DNA of 64,000 bases from a virus (IMGVR_UViG_3300045988_183620), one strand, 5' to 3'; shown: positions 35,090 to 43,984, numbered from the stretch's first letter. Notes: generated from the sequence alone by a model not told the origin. A program made the numbers and translations.

Positions 35090-35569
35090 TTATCTCTTAT
35101 TCGGCGACAAAACCCAAATCTCCACATTAGCGTTCCACGCCTCAGCAGCTTCGGCAATGAGAGAAAAGACAGTGTCCCAATCACCGCCCGCCAGGCCGCA
35201 GCCGATGCTGCTCGGAATACGGATAGTTGCTTCCGGGGCAATTTTCGAACAATCTCGCATAAACGTAAACAATGCCGTTGCAAAGGCAGCATAGTTCGTC
35301 TGACGTTCACCAAGTCCATAGTTATTTTGCCCAAACAGGTTCACGACATGAATGTTCGGCTCAACCCGGACTTTCTGGTAACTGCCAAGGAACTCCTTCC
35401 ATGCCGGAATTTCCATATATTGCTGGTACACAACGGGCCACTTACGGCGAATTTTGAGAGCAAGCCCCGCGCCCATCACGCCTCGACAATTCACCTGTTG
35501 ACAGATGTAGACCTCCTTGTTAGTAGGAAGATTCGTCAGGATGTCGCCGGAGATAATCTTGATGCTCAT
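35090..35569 (-). CDS. macro-domain protein (ADP-ribose binding/hydrolysing)
   Basis: ISGDILTNL...VYICQQVNCRGVMGAGLALKI. Confidence 0.7.
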   Translation of the reverse strand: MSIKIISGDILTNLPTNKEVYICQQVNCRGVMGAGLALKIRRKWPVVYQQYMEIPAWKEFLGSYQKVRVEPNIHVVNLFGQNNYGLGERQTNYAAFATALFTFMRDCSKIAPEATIRIPSSIGCGLAGGDWDTVFSLIAEAAEAWNANVEIWVLSPNKR

Positions 35570-35573
35570 GTCC

Positions 35574-36173
35574 TCACTCCTTTATGACGGTATAGTTGCC
35601 CGTGGCAAAGCCCAGCAGCTTGTTGTAAAGTTCCGCAGCAATTTCAATGAATGTCTCGCTGCAAGGGCTTATCCTGTGCAGAAAACGTTTGTCTTGCTGC
35701 ATCATAGATGCCATATTGAAGGCAATGGTAAGAACCTTTTTCTGCATGCGGCCGAAAGTCACGCCTCTCATTTCCACACTGTCAGGCGTTGCTGCCCACA
35801 CGGATGCCTGTACTGTAATGGCCCACAGGTCCGCATCCCAGAAGCGAGCGTTTTCGTTGCCCATCAAGGGCCGCATAATGCGCCAGGCGTTCTCGTAGCT
35901 CTTGCCTTCGACATTTTCAATGGCAGGCCCGAAGAAGCCGTCCGTTTTGTTGCTGAGTTCAATGAGACGCTCAGCCATCTTGGTGGCAGCGTAGGCCAGA
36001 GACTTGGCATCGGTGTCGTTCATTTCGATAGTCAGCTCTTCCCCATCGGGCTTGATGTACTTATACTTGTTCTCACCGATGGCTGCACTCTCCCACAGGA
36101 TGCGGGGCAGTTCCTTCAGCATGGTCTTGCTTGCACCAGCCTTTGCTTTATCAATGTAACTGCTGTTTGCCAT
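35574..36173 (-). CDS. family-X protein (paralog of the 42584-43246 product), immediately upstream of the macro gene
   Basis: Shares MxDxxAKxLA...AERLxxL...N.T.GF...AW with the 42584-43246 product. Confidence 0.55.
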   Translation of the reverse strand: MANSSYIDKAKAGASKTMLKELPRILWESAAIGENKYKYIKPDGEELTIEMNDTDAKSLAYAATKMAERLIELSNKTDGFFGPAIENVEGKSYENAWRIMRPLMGNENARFWDADLWAITVQASVWAATPDSVEMRGVTFGRMQKKVLTIAFNMASMMQQDKRFLHRISPCSETFIEIAAELYNKLLGFATGNYTVIKE

Positions 36174-36211
36174 GTTGTGTTCCTTTCAGTTCAAATGATA
36201 GATGCCTCAAC

Positions 36212-36637
36212 TCAATTCAGTTTATTTCCCGGATAAAGCGCATAGTCGTTACGGGATGTTCTCGATTCACTATGTATCAGCATCACGTTCGCCATGCTGG
36301 TATAGTAGTCTTTGTCTCCGCTCATAGTGTCTTCGACCTCGAACTTGATGTTCAGACCACCATCGACAATCTCGTACTTTACGAGCCTGGCTATGACCCA
36401 CTGGTTGTTGTGCCGGTAGTAGATGTAATCATAATCAGGCTCTGCAGACTCGGCCGTTCCCGGTTCAGCCGTCTCACTCGTTGCGAACAGCTGCGACGGA
36501 ATGCCTTTCAGCTCTTCCAGCGTCTGGTCTGCTACTTCACCGCAGCCCTCAAAGGCTACCGCAACGACCAGAATCACGCACACGACCAATGCTTTCTTTG
36601 CAAATCGAATAATCTGCTTCAAATGAATCACCACCAT
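36212..36637 (-). CDS. small secreted/lipoprotein
   Basis: N-terminal hydrophobic segment followed by Cys. Confidence 0.45.
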   Translation of the reverse strand: MVVIHLKQIIRFAKKALVVCVILVVAVAFEGCGEVADQTLEELKGIPSQLFATSETAEPGTAESAEPDYDYIYYRHNNQWVIARLVKYEIVDGGLNIKFEVEDTMSGDKDYYTSMANVMLIHSESRTSRNDYALYPGNKLN

Positions 36638-36992
36638 TTTTGTGGATGCAATGTTCTTTTTTGCTTTCTCTATCTATAATTTTACCTGTAAATGTGGCGA
36701 AATACAACGATAGTAGTTTGTTTTTAATCTTCTGTACACATTTTGAAAGAGAGTCTTTGCCATCGTATAAAAAGAAAAGACCCGCCTGTTAGCAGCAGGC
36801 AGGCCGTTCTCGCAGTGAGCGTTTAAGGTCCGCTCAAGACCCTATTCGTCTTTACCGAAGCAACACTATCAGCGCTGTTCAGTATCTATTAGTATATGGT
36901 GGTCGCATATCGTGTCAACTGCATATCGCGGCCATGCAGCAGAAAAAGGAGCCTCACCCGCTTCTGCAGGCAAGACTCTTCATTCGTTCGGT

Positions 36993-37319
36993 TTAGCCTT
37001 CCACATCGAAGGTGTAGCCCTTCTGCGTCATGGTGACCAGGCCGCCGCAAGACTTGCACTTTACGCCGTCCAGACTGACATCGAGAGTCAGGCTGGAATC
37101 TTCGTTGTCCAGCCAGTTGGGACGCATGTAAACAACGAGGTCATGCAGCGCACCGATGACGTAGGCGACCAGGTCCTCATCGTCCAGAGTCTGAGCAATC
37201 ACGTCGTTTTCCTTGTCGGCGGGAAAGCTGATGGAAGCGGTGAGGCTGTCAAGGGTGTTGTCATCCTTGGAGCGGAAAGCAGTGGCGCTGAACTCAATCA
37301 AGTTAGGGCTGGTGTTCAT
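36993..37319 (-). CDS. hypothetical protein (tandem paralog 1)
   Basis: MNTSPNLIEF start with AAGGAGAA ribosome-binding site; own promoter-like motif (37368-37386) and terminator. Confidence 0.55.
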   Translation of the reverse strand: MNTSPNLIEFSATAFRSKDDNTLDSLTASISFPADKENDVIAQTLDDEDLVAYVIGALHDLVVYMRPNWLDNEDSSLTLDVSLDGVKCKSCGGLVTMTQKGYTFDVEG

Positions 37320-42145: not shown

Positions 42146-42159
42146 GTTGAGTTCTCCTT

Positions 42160-42606
42160 TTATCTTAATTTGGTCCTGATTTCTTCGAGCATCATGCCCA
42201 GTTTGTTCTGACCGTGAACGCCCTTGCATCTGGGACACTGGCAATCCCCCCAATAGTTATCGTGCCAGCCGGTCGTGTCTTCGATAATGTGCCGGTCGCC
42301 TGTAGCGAGCAGTCGCTGTTTGAACTCCTCGTTCTGGCTGAACTTGGCATACAGCACCCGGCGCATCGCTTCGTCTCGAACTTCGTCCCAATCTGGAGAA
42401 AGTTGGACCCGGCGGCCGAGTTTCTTCGCCTCGTTCGGCATGAGGCAGGCAAACTGGCGTCTCTCCTCCAGCGGGACCTTCTGGGCCTGGAACGCTGCCT
42501 CCGCGTTGAGGTAGTAGATTCCATCCAGCACAAAGGAGCAAGGATAATAATTGCTCAGAAACACGTAGGTCGGGTCGTCTTTCTTAAACCGCAGCAGATT
42601 CAATGT
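42160..42606 (-). CDS. NADAR-domain protein (YbiA-like ADP-ribose/NAD-processing N-glycosidase fold)
   Basis: FLSNYYPCSFVLDGIYYLNAEAAFQAQK; TTG start with a GGAGGG ribosome-binding site. Confidence 0.65.
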   Translation of the reverse strand, partial: TLNLLRFKKDDPTYVFLSNYYPCSFVLDGIYYLNAEAAFQAQKVPLEERRQFACLMPNEAKKLGRRVQLSPDWDEVRDEAMRRVLYAKFSQNEEFKQRLLATGDRHIIEDTTGWHDNYWGDCQCPRCKGVHGQNKLGMMLEEIRTKLR

Positions 42607-43246
42607 GCATTCCCTCCATAACCCCGGCGGGCGTATCTTTGAGAACCTTGTGGCGCATCGTCGTAGCACCCAGCAGACCATTGAAGATGGTCACAGCGGT
42701 ATGCGCGAACAGAGGGTTCTGCAAGGTCATCTTGCCGTTTGTATCCCACTGGCCTTTGAGTTCAGCGGCCGCATCGTACACAACCATCATCATGGCTTCA
42801 TACATGTCGGACATCAGCTGGCGGTCGTACTTCTTCAAAGCATAGTAGCTTGGCAGGTTGTAAACGCGGCCGAGGAGCGGCTCATCATACAAGGGCGAAC
42901 CTTTCGCAACCATCGTATTGTAGACCTTGGGCCAGGCAGCTTCTTTCGGCTTGCCGGTGGTTGCCTGCATCTCGATGTTCTTGAAACCAGCCGTCATGTT
43001 GTACAGCACCATGAGCCGCTCGGCAAGCAAGACAGAAGACTCAGCCAGGTGCTTCGCTTCCTCATCGGTCATCGCGACCTGCATAACGGTATTGTCGGCG
43101 TCACTGCCGTAGTAGAAATACTGCTTGTGCCCGGCGGCAGCTTTCTGCACGAGCTTCTTTGCCAGCTGGCTCTCGATGTAATTGTAGATGTCGTTCTCCA
43201 ACTCGCAGGTGATGCGCGTTGCGGTATAATGGATATTTTTGTTCAT
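42584..43246 (-). CDS. family-X' protein, immediately upstream of the NADAR gene
   Basis: Homologous to the 35574-36173 product. Confidence 0.55.
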   Translation of the reverse strand: MNKNIHYTATRITCELENDIYNYIESQLAKKLVQKAAAGHKQYFYYGSDADNTVMQVAMTDEEAKHLAESSVLLAERLMVLYNMTAGFKNIEMQATTGKPKEAAWPKVYNTMVAKGSPLYDEPLLGRVYNLPSYYALKKYDRQLMSDMYEAMMMVVYDAAAELKGQWDTNGKMTLQNPLFAHTAVTIFNGLLGATTMRHKVLKDTPAGVMEGMHIESAAV

Positions 43247-43327
43247 GTAGTAGCCTCTTTCTGCATAGTAAAAAGAAAGAGCGGGCGAGCCGCTCTCCTC
43301 AAGACACTTATTTATCTTACGATTTTT

Positions 43328-43345
43328 ATTCTATGCAATTCGCAC
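43328..43345 (-). promoter_or_regulatory. promoter-like motif GTGCGAATTGCATAGAAT for the X'-NADAR operon
   Basis: See the finding on the promoter motif family. Confidence 0.4.
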
Positions 43346-43372
43346 AGACACGCAAGGCGAAATAGCGACAGC

Positions 43373-43984
43373 TCACGGATTCATCTCGTATGCAATCAGC
43401 GCGTCATTGAAATACTTGAAAGCCAAGTTGCCGATTTTATCGGCGTCCTTCGGCAGCTTGTCCACCATGCGCTTAATAGAGCCGCCCGTCTTGAGAGACT
43501 TCATCGCAAGGTGAACATTCCAGTACATGTTGGTATACACCAACTGCCACTTCTTCTTATCGCCGACATAAGCATCCGGCATACAGTCTTCTGCCACAAG
43601 GCGGATAAGCATATCCCACGCATCCAGATAGAGCGGGCTTGTATTGTCGTTCAGCTTATGGATGATTTGCTTCAGATAGGAAGTGTAGTCTTCCCCGCTG
43701 ATGTCAACGAGCTCGATGTCTGCGAACTTGTCGCGGAAGTAGTACAGCCAAAGCGTTGCTTTTGCAAGGTCGCAGCTGGCCGCAGCAAGCAGCTGAGCCT
43801 TTTCGTCCGGCAAAGTCACAATCTTGGCATCAGGGTCATCCAAGCCCTTCTCACCATAGAGATTGACCAGCTTGTACTGGTCTTTGCCGACTCTATCCTC
43901 TCTGCGAATAAACTCTTTGAAGTCTTCCACGAAGGCAATGTATGCCTGGACTTGCGGGTCGTTTTTCGGGTTGAAATCACTCAT
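43373..43984 (-). CDS. family-B protein
   Basis: See 41534-42145; own promoter-like motif at 44021-44042. Confidence 0.55.
   Translation of the reverse strand: MSDFNPKNDPQVQAYIAFVEDFKEFIRREDRVGKDQYKLVNLYGEKGLDDPDAKIVTLPDEKAQLLAAASCDLAKATLWLYYFRDKFADIELVDISGEDYTSYLKQIIHKLNDNTSPLYLDAWDMLIRLVAEDCMPDAYVGDKKKWQLVYTNMYWNVHLAMKSLKTGGSIKRMVDKLPKDADKIGNLAFKYFNDALIAYEMNP

What the first reader, a model, noticed from the sequence alone, without database searches (positions are those of the whole stretch)
35090..43984. Paralogous unknown proteins (X, X', B1, B2) paired with two different ADP-ribose-removing enzymes (macro and NADAR)
The 35574-36173 product (X) lies directly upstream of a macro-domain gene, and the 42584-43246 product (X') lies directly upstream of, and overlapping, a NADAR gene. 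X and X' are clearly homologous, sharing MxDxxAKxLA..(L)AERLxxL..N.T.GF....AW.

The family-B pair (41534-42145 and 43373-43984) flanks the X'-NADAR unit. Its members share YKLVN[IL]Y...DADKI[GT]NLAF and carry a similar DxxAK-xLA...LAxxLxxL segment, so they may be distant relatives of X and X'.

Macro and NADAR domains both reverse ADP-ribosylation, and NADAR and macro are the antitoxins of the DarT ADP-ribosyltransferase toxins. Two independent pairings of one unknown family with two different ADP-ribose erasers suggest that X-family proteins are ADP-ribosylation writers, substrates or sensors. They do not show obvious DarT motifs, so this may be an undescribed effector/immunity or anti-defense module.
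Basis: partly seen in the sequence, partly recalled or inferred. Interest (0 to 1): 0.8.

Follow-up and report, generated by a model that had tools for sequence, protein, structure and literature searches.

The report
Phage ADP-ribose erasers with novel partner
A large uncultivated gut phage carries two enzymes that remove ADP-ribose (a macro domain and a NADAR), each fused in a tight two-gene unit to a member of a previously undescribed helical protein family that is not an ADP-ribosyltransferase and is probably a non-catalytic helper in countering bacterial DNA ADP-ribosylating defences.

Summary
X (35574-36173) and X' (42584-43246) are homologs. B1 and B2 are 41% identical and belong to the same family: profile-profile probability 94.5%, and independent AlphaFold models show the same order of secondary-structure elements.

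X lies 4 nt upstream of a DarG-like macro gene. X' overlaps a NADAR gene by 20 nt.

The pairing is conserved beyond this window. In IMG/VR phage contigs, 52 of 53 X-type genes are followed by a macro gene and 16 of 16 X'-type genes by a NADAR gene, at only 33-39% identity to the window proteins. Eraser-linked members form one clade (bootstrap 92). Erasers occur without X. B-type members mostly have no eraser nearby.

The "writer" reading fails. The fold is an orphan helical bundle with a small beta meander, only one polar residue is conserved, and nothing matches ART, DarT or DarG C-terminal models.

The family is tiny (57 representatives among 1.84 billion proteins). It is absent from cultivated phages and found in only one of 185,579 species genomes searched, a gut MAG contig.

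Best reading: these are orphan-antitoxin-type counter-defence erasers (like AdfM and AdfN), each with a lineage-specific non-catalytic partner, an adaptor or a toxin binder. That mechanism is inferred, not shown.

The parts
35574..36173 (-). X: 199-aa member of the new helical family, macro-linked clade
   Evidence: ORF. Homolog of X'. No Pfam, PHROG, NCBIfam or PADLOC family. Orthologs at 33-93% identity always sit upstream of a macro gene. dN/dS is 0.19-0.29.
35090..35569 (-). Macro-domain ADP-ribose hydrolase, DarG/TARG1 class, without the DarG C-terminal domain (AdfM-like orphan antitoxin)
   Evidence: phrog_335 5e-36. NCBIfam antitoxin_DarG 2.5e-12 over model positions 1-149 of 338, and PADLOC DarG 8e-14 over positions 2-147 of 329. 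PDB hits 5e3b, 2fg1, DarG macro 5m31/5m3i and TARG1. Shares the VN..GVMGAGLA catalytic-Asn motif with PhiKZ AdfM. The Shine-Dalgarno AAGGAG lies inside the last codons of X.
42584..43246 (-). X': 220-aa member of the new family, NADAR-linked clade
   Evidence: ORF. AlphaFold pLDDT 78, pTM 0.78: helix, three strands, helical bundle. No significant structural neighbour. Relatives at 36-39% identity always sit upstream of a NADAR gene.
42160..42603 (-). NADAR ADP-ribosyl glycohydrolase (AdfN-like). Likely TTG start at 42603, overlapping X' by 20 nt; an in-frame ATG at 42681 is the alternative start
   Evidence: Pfam NADAR 4.3e-28 and Phage_30_3 2e-7. phrog_1017 5e-36. NCBIfam 'NADAR family anti-phage protein' 4e-16, below its cut-off. 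GGAGGG lies 8 nt before the TTG. Called as 147 aa in relatives.
41534..42145 (-). B1: 203-aa family member, B clade, 14 nt downstream of the NADAR gene
   Evidence: 41% identical to B2. Family profile hits. Broken by a natural deletion in relatives, giving a B1::RlaP fusion.
43373..43984 (-). B2: 203-aa family member, B clade, upstream of X'
   Evidence: AlphaFold pLDDT 87.4, pTM 0.86, with the same element order as X'. hhalign of B vs X gives 94.5%.
43276..43298 (-). Terminator-like hairpin between B2 and X', which may separate B2 from the X'-NADAR-B1 unit
   Evidence: Consensus scan: 9-bp stem followed by a T run. This is a pattern match only.

Best explanation
The window is part of a large uncultivated gut phage. 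Its macro (35090-35569) and NADAR (42160-42603) genes are stand-alone, antitoxin-like ADP-ribose hydrolases. They resemble those that phages use to strip ADP-ribose from their DNA when a host DarT-type toxin modifies it: AdfM for DarT2 (macro) and AdfN for DarT1 (NADAR).

Each is translationally coupled to an upstream gene of a new, phage-restricted, non-enzymatic helical protein family (X and X'). The most likely role of X and X' is as a non-catalytic partner of the eraser. It could be an adaptor that brings the hydrolase to its substrate or to the phage replication machinery. Or it could be a binder of the host ADP-ribosyltransferase. Either would make the pair a split functional analogue of two-domain DarG (hydrolase plus toxin-binding domain).

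B1 and B2 are paralogs of the same family that are not tied to an eraser and probably act on their own.

What is shown: homology, fold class, absence of ART features, gene coupling, conservation of the pairings, and restriction to phages.
What is inferred: counter-defence function of the erasers in this phage, any physical X-eraser or X-toxin contact, and the target.
For: (1) Eraser identity. NADAR matches Pfam at 4e-28. The macro matches only the macro half of the DarG models and DarG/TARG1-class structures. It shares the catalytic-Asn motif with AdfM.

(2) Literature. Orphan phage NADAR (AdfN) and macro (AdfM) neutralise DarTG1 and DarTG2 (PMC11825919, PMC13309987). DarG combines a hydrolase with a toxin-binding C-terminal domain, and phage AdfB inhibits DarT by direct binding (PMC11481870). 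AdfN of T4 appears to need an unidentified extra phage protein (PMC11825919).

(3) Coupling. X and macro are separated by 4 nt, with the Shine-Dalgarno inside X. X' and NADAR overlap by 20 nt. 50 of 52 related X-macro pairs overlap by 4 nt.

(4) Conservation. 52/53 X-type genes precede a macro and 16/16 X'-type genes precede a NADAR in IMG/VR. The same holds in ENA and Logan contigs with different flanks. This is despite 33-39% identity and variable upstream genes.

(5) Eraser-linked proteins form one clade (bootstrap 92), split into macro-linked (94) and NADAR-linked (100) sister groups. The partner stayed while the analogous enzyme was exchanged.

(6) Asymmetry. Erasers occur without X (macro in L075-79, L082 and L083; NADAR in L010; cultivated phages). 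Intact X/X'-clade genes almost never occur without an eraser.

(7) Non-enzymatic character. The fold is an orphan helical one. One conserved Asp only. dN/dS is 0.11-0.29, against 0.02-0.09 for macro.

(8) Accessory status. A natural 8.8-kb deletion removes X-macro. Neighbours include an AcrVA2-like gene and an Apyc1-like MBL gene.
Against: - No direct evidence of an X-eraser or X-toxin interaction; a complex could not be modelled.
- All loci come from one related group of large gut phages that share the downstream macro-MazG-RlaP-helicase block. Part of the conservation is therefore inherited synteny: only about 3-5 deep lineages per pair.
- X and X' would have to work with two structurally unrelated enzymes.
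- Exceptions exist. One X'-like domain is fused to a small HNH domain with the NADAR gone. One X-like gene is followed by only a macro remnant.
- The host and its DarT systems are unknown.
Confidence: 0.45

Rival explanations
1. Hitch-hiking. The X/B family is a multi-copy set of independent accessory or anti-defence proteins that happen to lie in the same variable island as the erasers. The adjacency is inherited synteny within one phage group, with no functional tie to ADP-ribose.
For: - B-type members have no eraser within 5 kb in 42 of 75 loci.
- Other members (P0041, P0092, P0096) have unrelated neighbours.
- Paralogs cluster without erasers (L084, L139).
- All loci share a conserved downstream block.
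- The macro works without X in a sister lineage.
- The island holds many unrelated accessory genes.
Against: - Two sister subclades are each coupled by overlapping or near-abutting reading frames to a different ADP-ribose eraser.
- The coupling is retained at 33-39% identity while neighbouring genes are inserted, deleted or replaced.
- Under a null restricted to about 20 island genes, both X-clade genes landing directly upstream of the only two erasers has a probability of roughly 0.006 (own estimate).
Confidence: 0.3
2. Toxin-antitoxin or effector-immunity module. X and X' are toxic effectors or writers of a new kind, and the downstream eraser is their antidote, as in DarT-DarG and DarT-NADAR.
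For: - Gene order (unknown gene upstream, eraser downstream, overlapping) mimics DarT-DarG.
- Erasers occur alone, but intact X/X' genes almost never do.
- Bacterial DarT operons use exactly these two eraser types (PMC11543638, PMC11825919).
Against: - The confident AlphaFold models are helical, with no ART-like beta core.
- No DarT, ART or other family hit.
- A single conserved polar residue.
- One intact X-like gene is followed only by a macro remnant, and one X'-like gene is fused to HNH without a NADAR.
- Natural deletions cut through family genes without obvious constraint.
Confidence: 0.07
3. Decoy or substrate. X-family proteins are abundant early proteins that soak up host ADP-ribosylation, or are themselves regulated by it. 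The adjacent eraser recycles them.
For: - Tight stoichiometric co-expression is implied by the coupling.
- Fast evolution relative to the enzymes.
- Multiple paralogs in each genome.
Against: - There is no conserved acceptor-like residue pattern apart from one Asp.
- Nothing in the sequence speaks specifically for this.
- The macro belongs to the DarG/TARG1 class, and NADARs of this type act on DNA bases in the published cases (PMC11825919, PMC13309987).
Confidence: 0.08
4. Regulator. X-family proteins are phage transcription or host-takeover factors (sigma-like, anti-sigma-like or TetR-C-like helical bundles) unrelated to ADP-ribose chemistry.
Against: - The matches are weak (rmsd 4-10 A, 5-15% identity), which is typical of generic helical bundles.
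- Foldseek finds nothing at E<0.001.
- No HTH or sigma region is detected by Pfam.
- This reading does not explain the eraser coupling.
Confidence: 0.07

Closest known systems
AdfN (T4 gp30.3), the orphan NADAR anti-DarTG1 factor (PMC11825919)
   Same: A stand-alone phage NADAR of about 150 aa. The window protein matches Pfam NADAR and, weakly, Phage_30_3. Such enzymes remove ADP-ribose from guanine in phage DNA.
   Different: Here the NADAR is translationally coupled to an upstream 220-aa protein (X'), which has no counterpart in T4 or in any GenBank phage. Activity is not tested. The paper notes that T4 AdfN seems to need an unknown extra phage factor, which is an analogy only.
AdfM (PhiKZ gp104), the DarG2-like macro anti-DarTG2 factor (PMC13309987)
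   Same: A stand-alone phage macrodomain of about 160 aa of the DarG class. It shares the VN..GVMGAGLA motif carrying the catalytic Asn.
   Different: Only local sequence similarity (41% over 51 aa). Coupled to the upstream X gene. There is no evidence for a phage nucleus here.
Bacterial DarG antitoxin (macro or NADAR domain plus a C-terminal DarT-binding domain)
   Same: Two functions side by side: a hydrolase plus a roughly 200-aa non-catalytic module. The same two alternative hydrolase folds are used.
   Different: Two separate genes, with the unknown protein upstream rather than fused at the C-terminus. X and X' do not match the C-terminal half of the DarG models. No DarT gene is nearby. 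DarT binding is untested.
AdfA and AdfB, small phage proteins that inhibit DarT directly (PMC11481870)
   Same: Non-enzymatic phage proteins proposed to neutralise DarT by binding. This is one of the two roles proposed here for X and X'.
   Different: AdfB is 77 aa and is not reported next to an eraser.
DarT-DarG and DarT-NADAR toxin-antitoxin operons
   Same: Gene order (unknown gene, then eraser) and overlapping reading frames.
   Different: The upstream protein is helical, not an ART. The module is phage-borne.

Membership tests
ADP-ribosyltransferase superfamily (DarT/DUF4433, Alt/Mod, RES etc.), for X, X', B1 and B2 | Split beta-sheet NAD-binding ART fold | tested here: not met
ADP-ribosyltransferase superfamily (DarT/DUF4433, Alt/Mod, RES etc.), for X, X', B1 and B2 | Sequence match to ART or DarT profiles, and a conserved catalytic triad (H-Y-E or R-S-E) | tested here: not met
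   No Pfam, NCBIfam, PADLOC or PHROG hit at E<=0.1 apart from noise. Only one Asp is near-invariant across the family.
DarG C-terminal (DarT-binding) domain, for X and X' | Sequence similarity to the C-terminal half of DarG | tested here: not met
   hmmscan against NCBIfam antitoxin_DarG (338 positions) and PADLOC DarG (329 positions) gives no hit for X or X'.
DarG C-terminal (DarT-binding) domain, for X and X' | Binds and occludes DarT | not testable with these tools
   Needs a binding assay or complex modelling. No cognate DarT is known.
Macrodomain, DarG/TARG1 class (AdfM-like), for 35090-35569 | Macro fold and sequence with the catalytic-site motifs | tested here: met
   DarG models hit at 2.5e-12 and 8e-14 over the macro half. 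PDB 5e3b 1e-13, DarG macro 5m31/5m3i, TARG1. phrog_335 5e-36. The Asn motif is shared with AdfM. Pfam Macro itself is only 0.029.
Macrodomain, DarG/TARG1 class (AdfM-like), for 35090-35569 | Removes ADP-ribose from thymidine in ssDNA and rescues from DarT2 | not testable with these tools
   Requires an enzymatic and genetic assay.
NADAR (AdfN/DarG1-like), for 42160-42603 | Match to the NADAR profile above the curated threshold | tested here: met
   PF08719: 99.1 bits against a cut-off of 35.1. TIGR02464: 88.6 bits against 73.7.
NADAR (AdfN/DarG1-like), for 42160-42603 | Removes ADP-ribose from guanine in DNA and counters DarTG1 | not testable with these tools
   Requires an enzymatic and genetic assay.
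New X/B family (this report), for B1 and B2 as relatives of X and X' | Full-length profile-profile similarity and the same predicted fold | tested here: met
   hhalign 94.5%, E 7.7e-8 over 174 columns, and 84.7%, E 6.6e-6. The independent models share the same order of secondary-structure elements.
New X/B family (this report), for ORF 40905-41522 | Profile similarity to the family | tested here: not met
   An HMM built without it gives E 0.085 against the window ORFs. hhalign probability is 1.7% against both the X and B profiles.
Type II toxin-antitoxin module | The upstream gene product is toxic and is neutralised by the downstream product | not testable with these tools
   Only the gene order and overlap are seen.

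The most novel reading that the evidence does not exclude
X and X' are a new, fold-unrelated class of ADP-ribosylation-linked effector that cannot be carried without an eraser in cis. Examples would be a toxin, or a sensor that generates or exposes an ADP-ribose-containing product. That would make these phage-borne, TA-like or superinfection-exclusion modules that evolved independently of the ART superfamily. The asymmetry fits this reading: erasers occur alone, but intact X/X' genes almost never do. So does the DarT-DarG-like gene order. The helical fold and the lack of conserved catalytic residues argue against it.
Probability: 0.07. Interest if true: 0.85.

Novelty: new variant of a known kind. 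Interest (0 to 1): 0.6.

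Why it matters
Orphan antitoxin-like erasers (AdfN, AdfM) were described only recently as phage answers to DarTG defence. 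For T4 AdfN, the authors suspect an unidentified additional phage factor (PMC11825919).

This locus offers a concrete candidate for such a helper. It is a small, phage-only protein family whose two sister branches are each welded to a different, structurally unrelated ADP-ribose hydrolase. That pattern is classic genomic evidence for a shared pathway.

If X and X' are adaptors or toxin binders, phages would have rebuilt the two-pronged DarG strategy from separate parts. The family would also give a handle on how erasers are targeted to phage DNA. The predicted fold has no match in PDB or BFVD, so the structure itself would be new.

The proposal is directly testable with four small genes.

Tried and rejected
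- **Near-identical DNA.** Megablast of the 9.1-kb region against GenBank phages and PLSDB plasmids found no match. tblastn of X and B2 against GenBank phages also found none.
- **AFDB50 fold search.** The library was unavailable. All three fold-search jobs were then used on the X' model, so the better B2 model could not be searched.
- **One alignment of all X-like members for locus finding.** It was too diverse and was split into A8 and A9.
- **DNA-mimic idea (as for the DarG C-terminal domain or Ocr).** X and X' are near neutral (pI 6.0-6.3) and B1 and B2 only mildly acidic (pI 4.8-5.0). There is no support for this idea.
- **Positive selection.** Pairwise dN/dS is 0.11-0.29, which means purifying selection, only more relaxed than in the enzymes.
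- **ORF 40905-41522 as a fifth paralog.** Rejected for lack of support.
- **A C-terminal extension of a 316-aa NADAR in L010 as a possible X' fusion.** It is unrelated to the family.
- **A cognate DarT or ART among neighbouring ORFs.** None was found with PADLOC or Pfam.
- **X-like partners next to the closest macro and NADAR genes of cultivated phages (Geobacillus E3, Bacillus AR9).** None is present.
- **PDB sequence search with the family profile.** Only noise.

Full report
**What is in the sequence**

All genes of the region lie on the minus strand and are tightly packed. The order along the direction of transcription is:
- B2 (43373-43984)
- a terminator-like hairpin (43276-43298)
- X' (42584-43246)
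- NADAR (42160-42603)
- B1 (41534-42145)
- an unassigned 205-aa ORF (40905-41522)
- a 506-aa TPR-like protein
- a TIR-like gene
- several small ORFs
- X (35574-36173)
- macro (35090-35569)
- a 70-aa ORF and a 140-aa ORF
- a MazG-like gene
- a 139-aa ORF
- an RlaP nucleotidyltransferase
- a UvrD-like helicase

The window is phage-like. It encodes a DNA polymerase, a helicase and an HD phosphohydrolase. Its relatives are IMG/VR viral contigs of up to 389 kb.

- B1 and B2 are 41% identical.
- B is a genuine relative of X and X'. Profile-profile comparison gives 94.5% probability (E 7.7e-8, 174 columns) for X vs B, and 84.7% for X' vs B.
- AlphaFold models of X' (pLDDT 78, pTM 0.78) and of B2 (pLDDT 87, pTM 0.86) support this. 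The B2 model was built from a B-only alignment. Both show the same succession of a long helix, three short strands and six helices at matching positions.
- The neighbouring ORF 40905-41522 looks colinear in a MAFFT alignment but fails every test of membership.

**The two enzymes**

The NADAR assignment is secure: Pfam 99 bits against a cut-off of 35.

The macro protein is weak against Pfam's Macro model. It clearly matches the macro half, and only that half, of the DarG antitoxin models of NCBIfam and PADLOC. It also matches the solved macrodomains of SCO6735, DarG and TARG1. It shares the motif carrying the catalytic Asn with PhiKZ AdfM.

Both enzymes are therefore stand-alone, antitoxin-like erasers. 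Published work shows that such enzymes protect phages from DarT1 (AdfN, a NADAR; PMC11825919) and DarT2 (AdfM, a macro; PMC13309987).

No DarT-like gene was found among the neighbours.

**The coupling**

X ends with AAGGAGTGA, and the macro ATG follows 4 nt later. This puts the macro ribosome-binding site inside X.

The NADAR most plausibly starts at TTG 42603, 8 nt after GGAGGG and inside the X' frame, giving a 20-nt overlap. Gene calls in relatives agree.

**Conservation elsewhere**

The family is very small. An exhaustive HMMER search of 1.84 billion representative proteins found 57. There is no hit in GenBank phages. Among 185,579 species genomes there is one hit, a MAG contig.

Within IMG/VR:
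- 52 of 53 X-type genes are followed directly by a macro gene; 50 of the 52 overlap it by 4 nt.
- 16 of 16 X'-type genes are followed directly by a NADAR gene.
- Identities to the window proteins go down to 33-39%.
- The same pairs occur in ENA and Logan contigs with other flanking genes.

These loci are not independent. They collapse to 3 clusters at 50% identity for each pair. They also share a conserved downstream block. Even so, the upstream side varies and the region is a hotspot of rearrangement:
- A natural 8.8-kb in-frame deletion (window 33067-41836) fuses B1 to RlaP in several samples.
- The TIR-like gene is unique to this window.
- A Cas7-like gene interrupts X in one contig.

A neighbour-joining tree puts all eraser-linked proteins in one clade (bootstrap 92). 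That clade splits into macro-linked (94) and NADAR-linked (100) sister groups. The simplest history is a single origin of the partnership, followed by duplication and exchange of one analogous hydrolase for the other.

**Limits of the linkage**

Erasers exist without the partner:
- A sister lineage has the macro directly after the upstream lipoprotein-like gene, with no X.
- L010 has a NADAR without X'.
- The closest macro and NADAR genes in cultivated phages have unrelated neighbours.

B-type and intermediate family members mostly have no eraser nearby: 42 of 75 loci for B-type, and similarly for the intermediates.

Three exceptions were seen for the X/X' clade:
- an X'-like domain fused to a 50-aa HNH domain, with the recombination breakpoint exactly at the X' 3' end and the NADAR gone
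- an intact X-like gene followed by only a macro remnant
- the Cas7 disruption noted above

**What X is not**

It is not an obvious DNA mimic.

It does not match the C-terminal half of DarG at sequence level.

The genes are real and under purifying selection, with dN/dS 0.11-0.29. They are consistently the most diverged genes of their block. For example, X is 71% identical where macro is 95%.

**Most likely mechanism**

I take the erasers to be counter-defence enzymes against DNA ADP-ribosylation by host DarT-type toxins. This is established for homologous phage enzymes and inferred here.

I take X and X' to be non-catalytic partners made in fixed proportion with them. Two versions fit the data:
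1. An adaptor that targets or activates the hydrolase. This would echo the unexplained need of T4 AdfN for another T-even factor. It would also fit the X'-HNH fusion, where the same domain is joined to another DNA-acting enzyme.
2. A binder of the host transferase. This would make the pair a split analogue of DarG, whose C-terminal domain blocks DarT (PMC11481870). DarT1 and DarT2 are homologs countered by NADAR and macro respectively, just as X' and X are homologs paired with NADAR and macro.

The asymmetry of occurrence favours dependence of X on the eraser. I put about 0.45 on this family of explanations, 0.3 on mere hitch-hiking in a syntenic accessory island, and small probabilities on the toxin, decoy and regulator readings.

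**Novelty**

Phage macro and NADAR erasers are known. I found no description of a conserved partner family in the literature searched or in the family libraries. I file it as a new variant of a known kind: orphan-antitoxin counter-defence, here in a two-gene form with a new protein family of orphan fold.

Noticed in passing
window 33067-41836 (junctions in B1 at about 41837 and in RlaP at about 33066); L001-L004: A natural 8.8-kb in-frame deletion variant fuses the N-half of B1 to the C-half of the RlaP nucleotidyltransferase (protein P0048). It removes about 14 genes, including X-macro, TIR and TPR. It is seen in at least 5 contigs from different samples. The junction has short imperfect microhomology.
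   Followed up: yes
window 38736-39398 (-): A TIR-like gene (Pfam CAP12/Pycsar TIR 2e-23; PADLOC candidate single-gene system PDC-S35 3.5e-24) sits in the lowest-GC stretch of the window (0.41). It is absent from every related contig examined. It looks like a recent acquisition of a defence-type or NAD-consuming gene by the phage.
   Followed up: partly
database proteins P0047, P0059, P0062, P0064, P0088, P0100, P0033, P0060: An unusual share of family members in the databases are chimeras. Fusion partners include Band7, a HAD-like phosphatase, a secreted repeat protein, the homolog of window gene 33633-34052, the OrfB_IS605 HTH and PcfJ. This suggests a deletion and recombination hotspot, or assembly chimeras.
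   Followed up: partly
L065 5998-7272: An X-like N-terminal 105 aa runs in frame into a Cas7/Csd2-like protein (NPNGDPD motif). This suggests a CRISPR-Cas cassette inserted into the X gene of a related large phage.
   Followed up: no
L167 5001-5702 (protein P0089): An X'-like domain is fused to a minimal HNH nuclease domain. Similarity to the X'-NADAR lineage (L007) stops exactly at the X' 3' end, and the NADAR is absent.
   Followed up: partly
window 36993-37385 and 37505-37825 (-): Two paralogous small, very acidic proteins (50% identical, pI 4.0-4.6) with no family assignment. They are conserved upstream of the X-macro block in relatives.
   Followed up: no
window 49244-50131 (-) and 23619-24776 (-): An AcrVA2-like protein (100% identical to the L001 ortholog, which carries a precomputed PF26125 hit) and a metallo-beta-lactamase-fold protein with a faint Anti-Pycsar Apyc1 hit. 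These are further candidate anti-defence genes in the same phage.
   Followed up: partly
window 32608-34493 (-): A MazG-like (PRA-PH) gene, a 139-aa unknown and an RlaP nucleotidyltransferase form a block conserved in all related phages downstream of the macro gene. It is possibly an RNA-repair or nucleotide-signal-degrading set.
   Followed up: no
L084 1073-4170: A 50-kb contig carrying two family paralogs also encodes SecY, SecE and a trigger-factor-like FKBP protein, an unusual gene set if the contig is viral.
   Followed up: no
L165/L166 (protein P0069): An intact X-clade gene is followed about 90 nt later by only the C-terminal motif of a macro gene (..IPYGLGCGLAGG), preceded by stop codons. 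This is a possible macro pseudogene, but the contigs are under 1 kb.
   Followed up: partly
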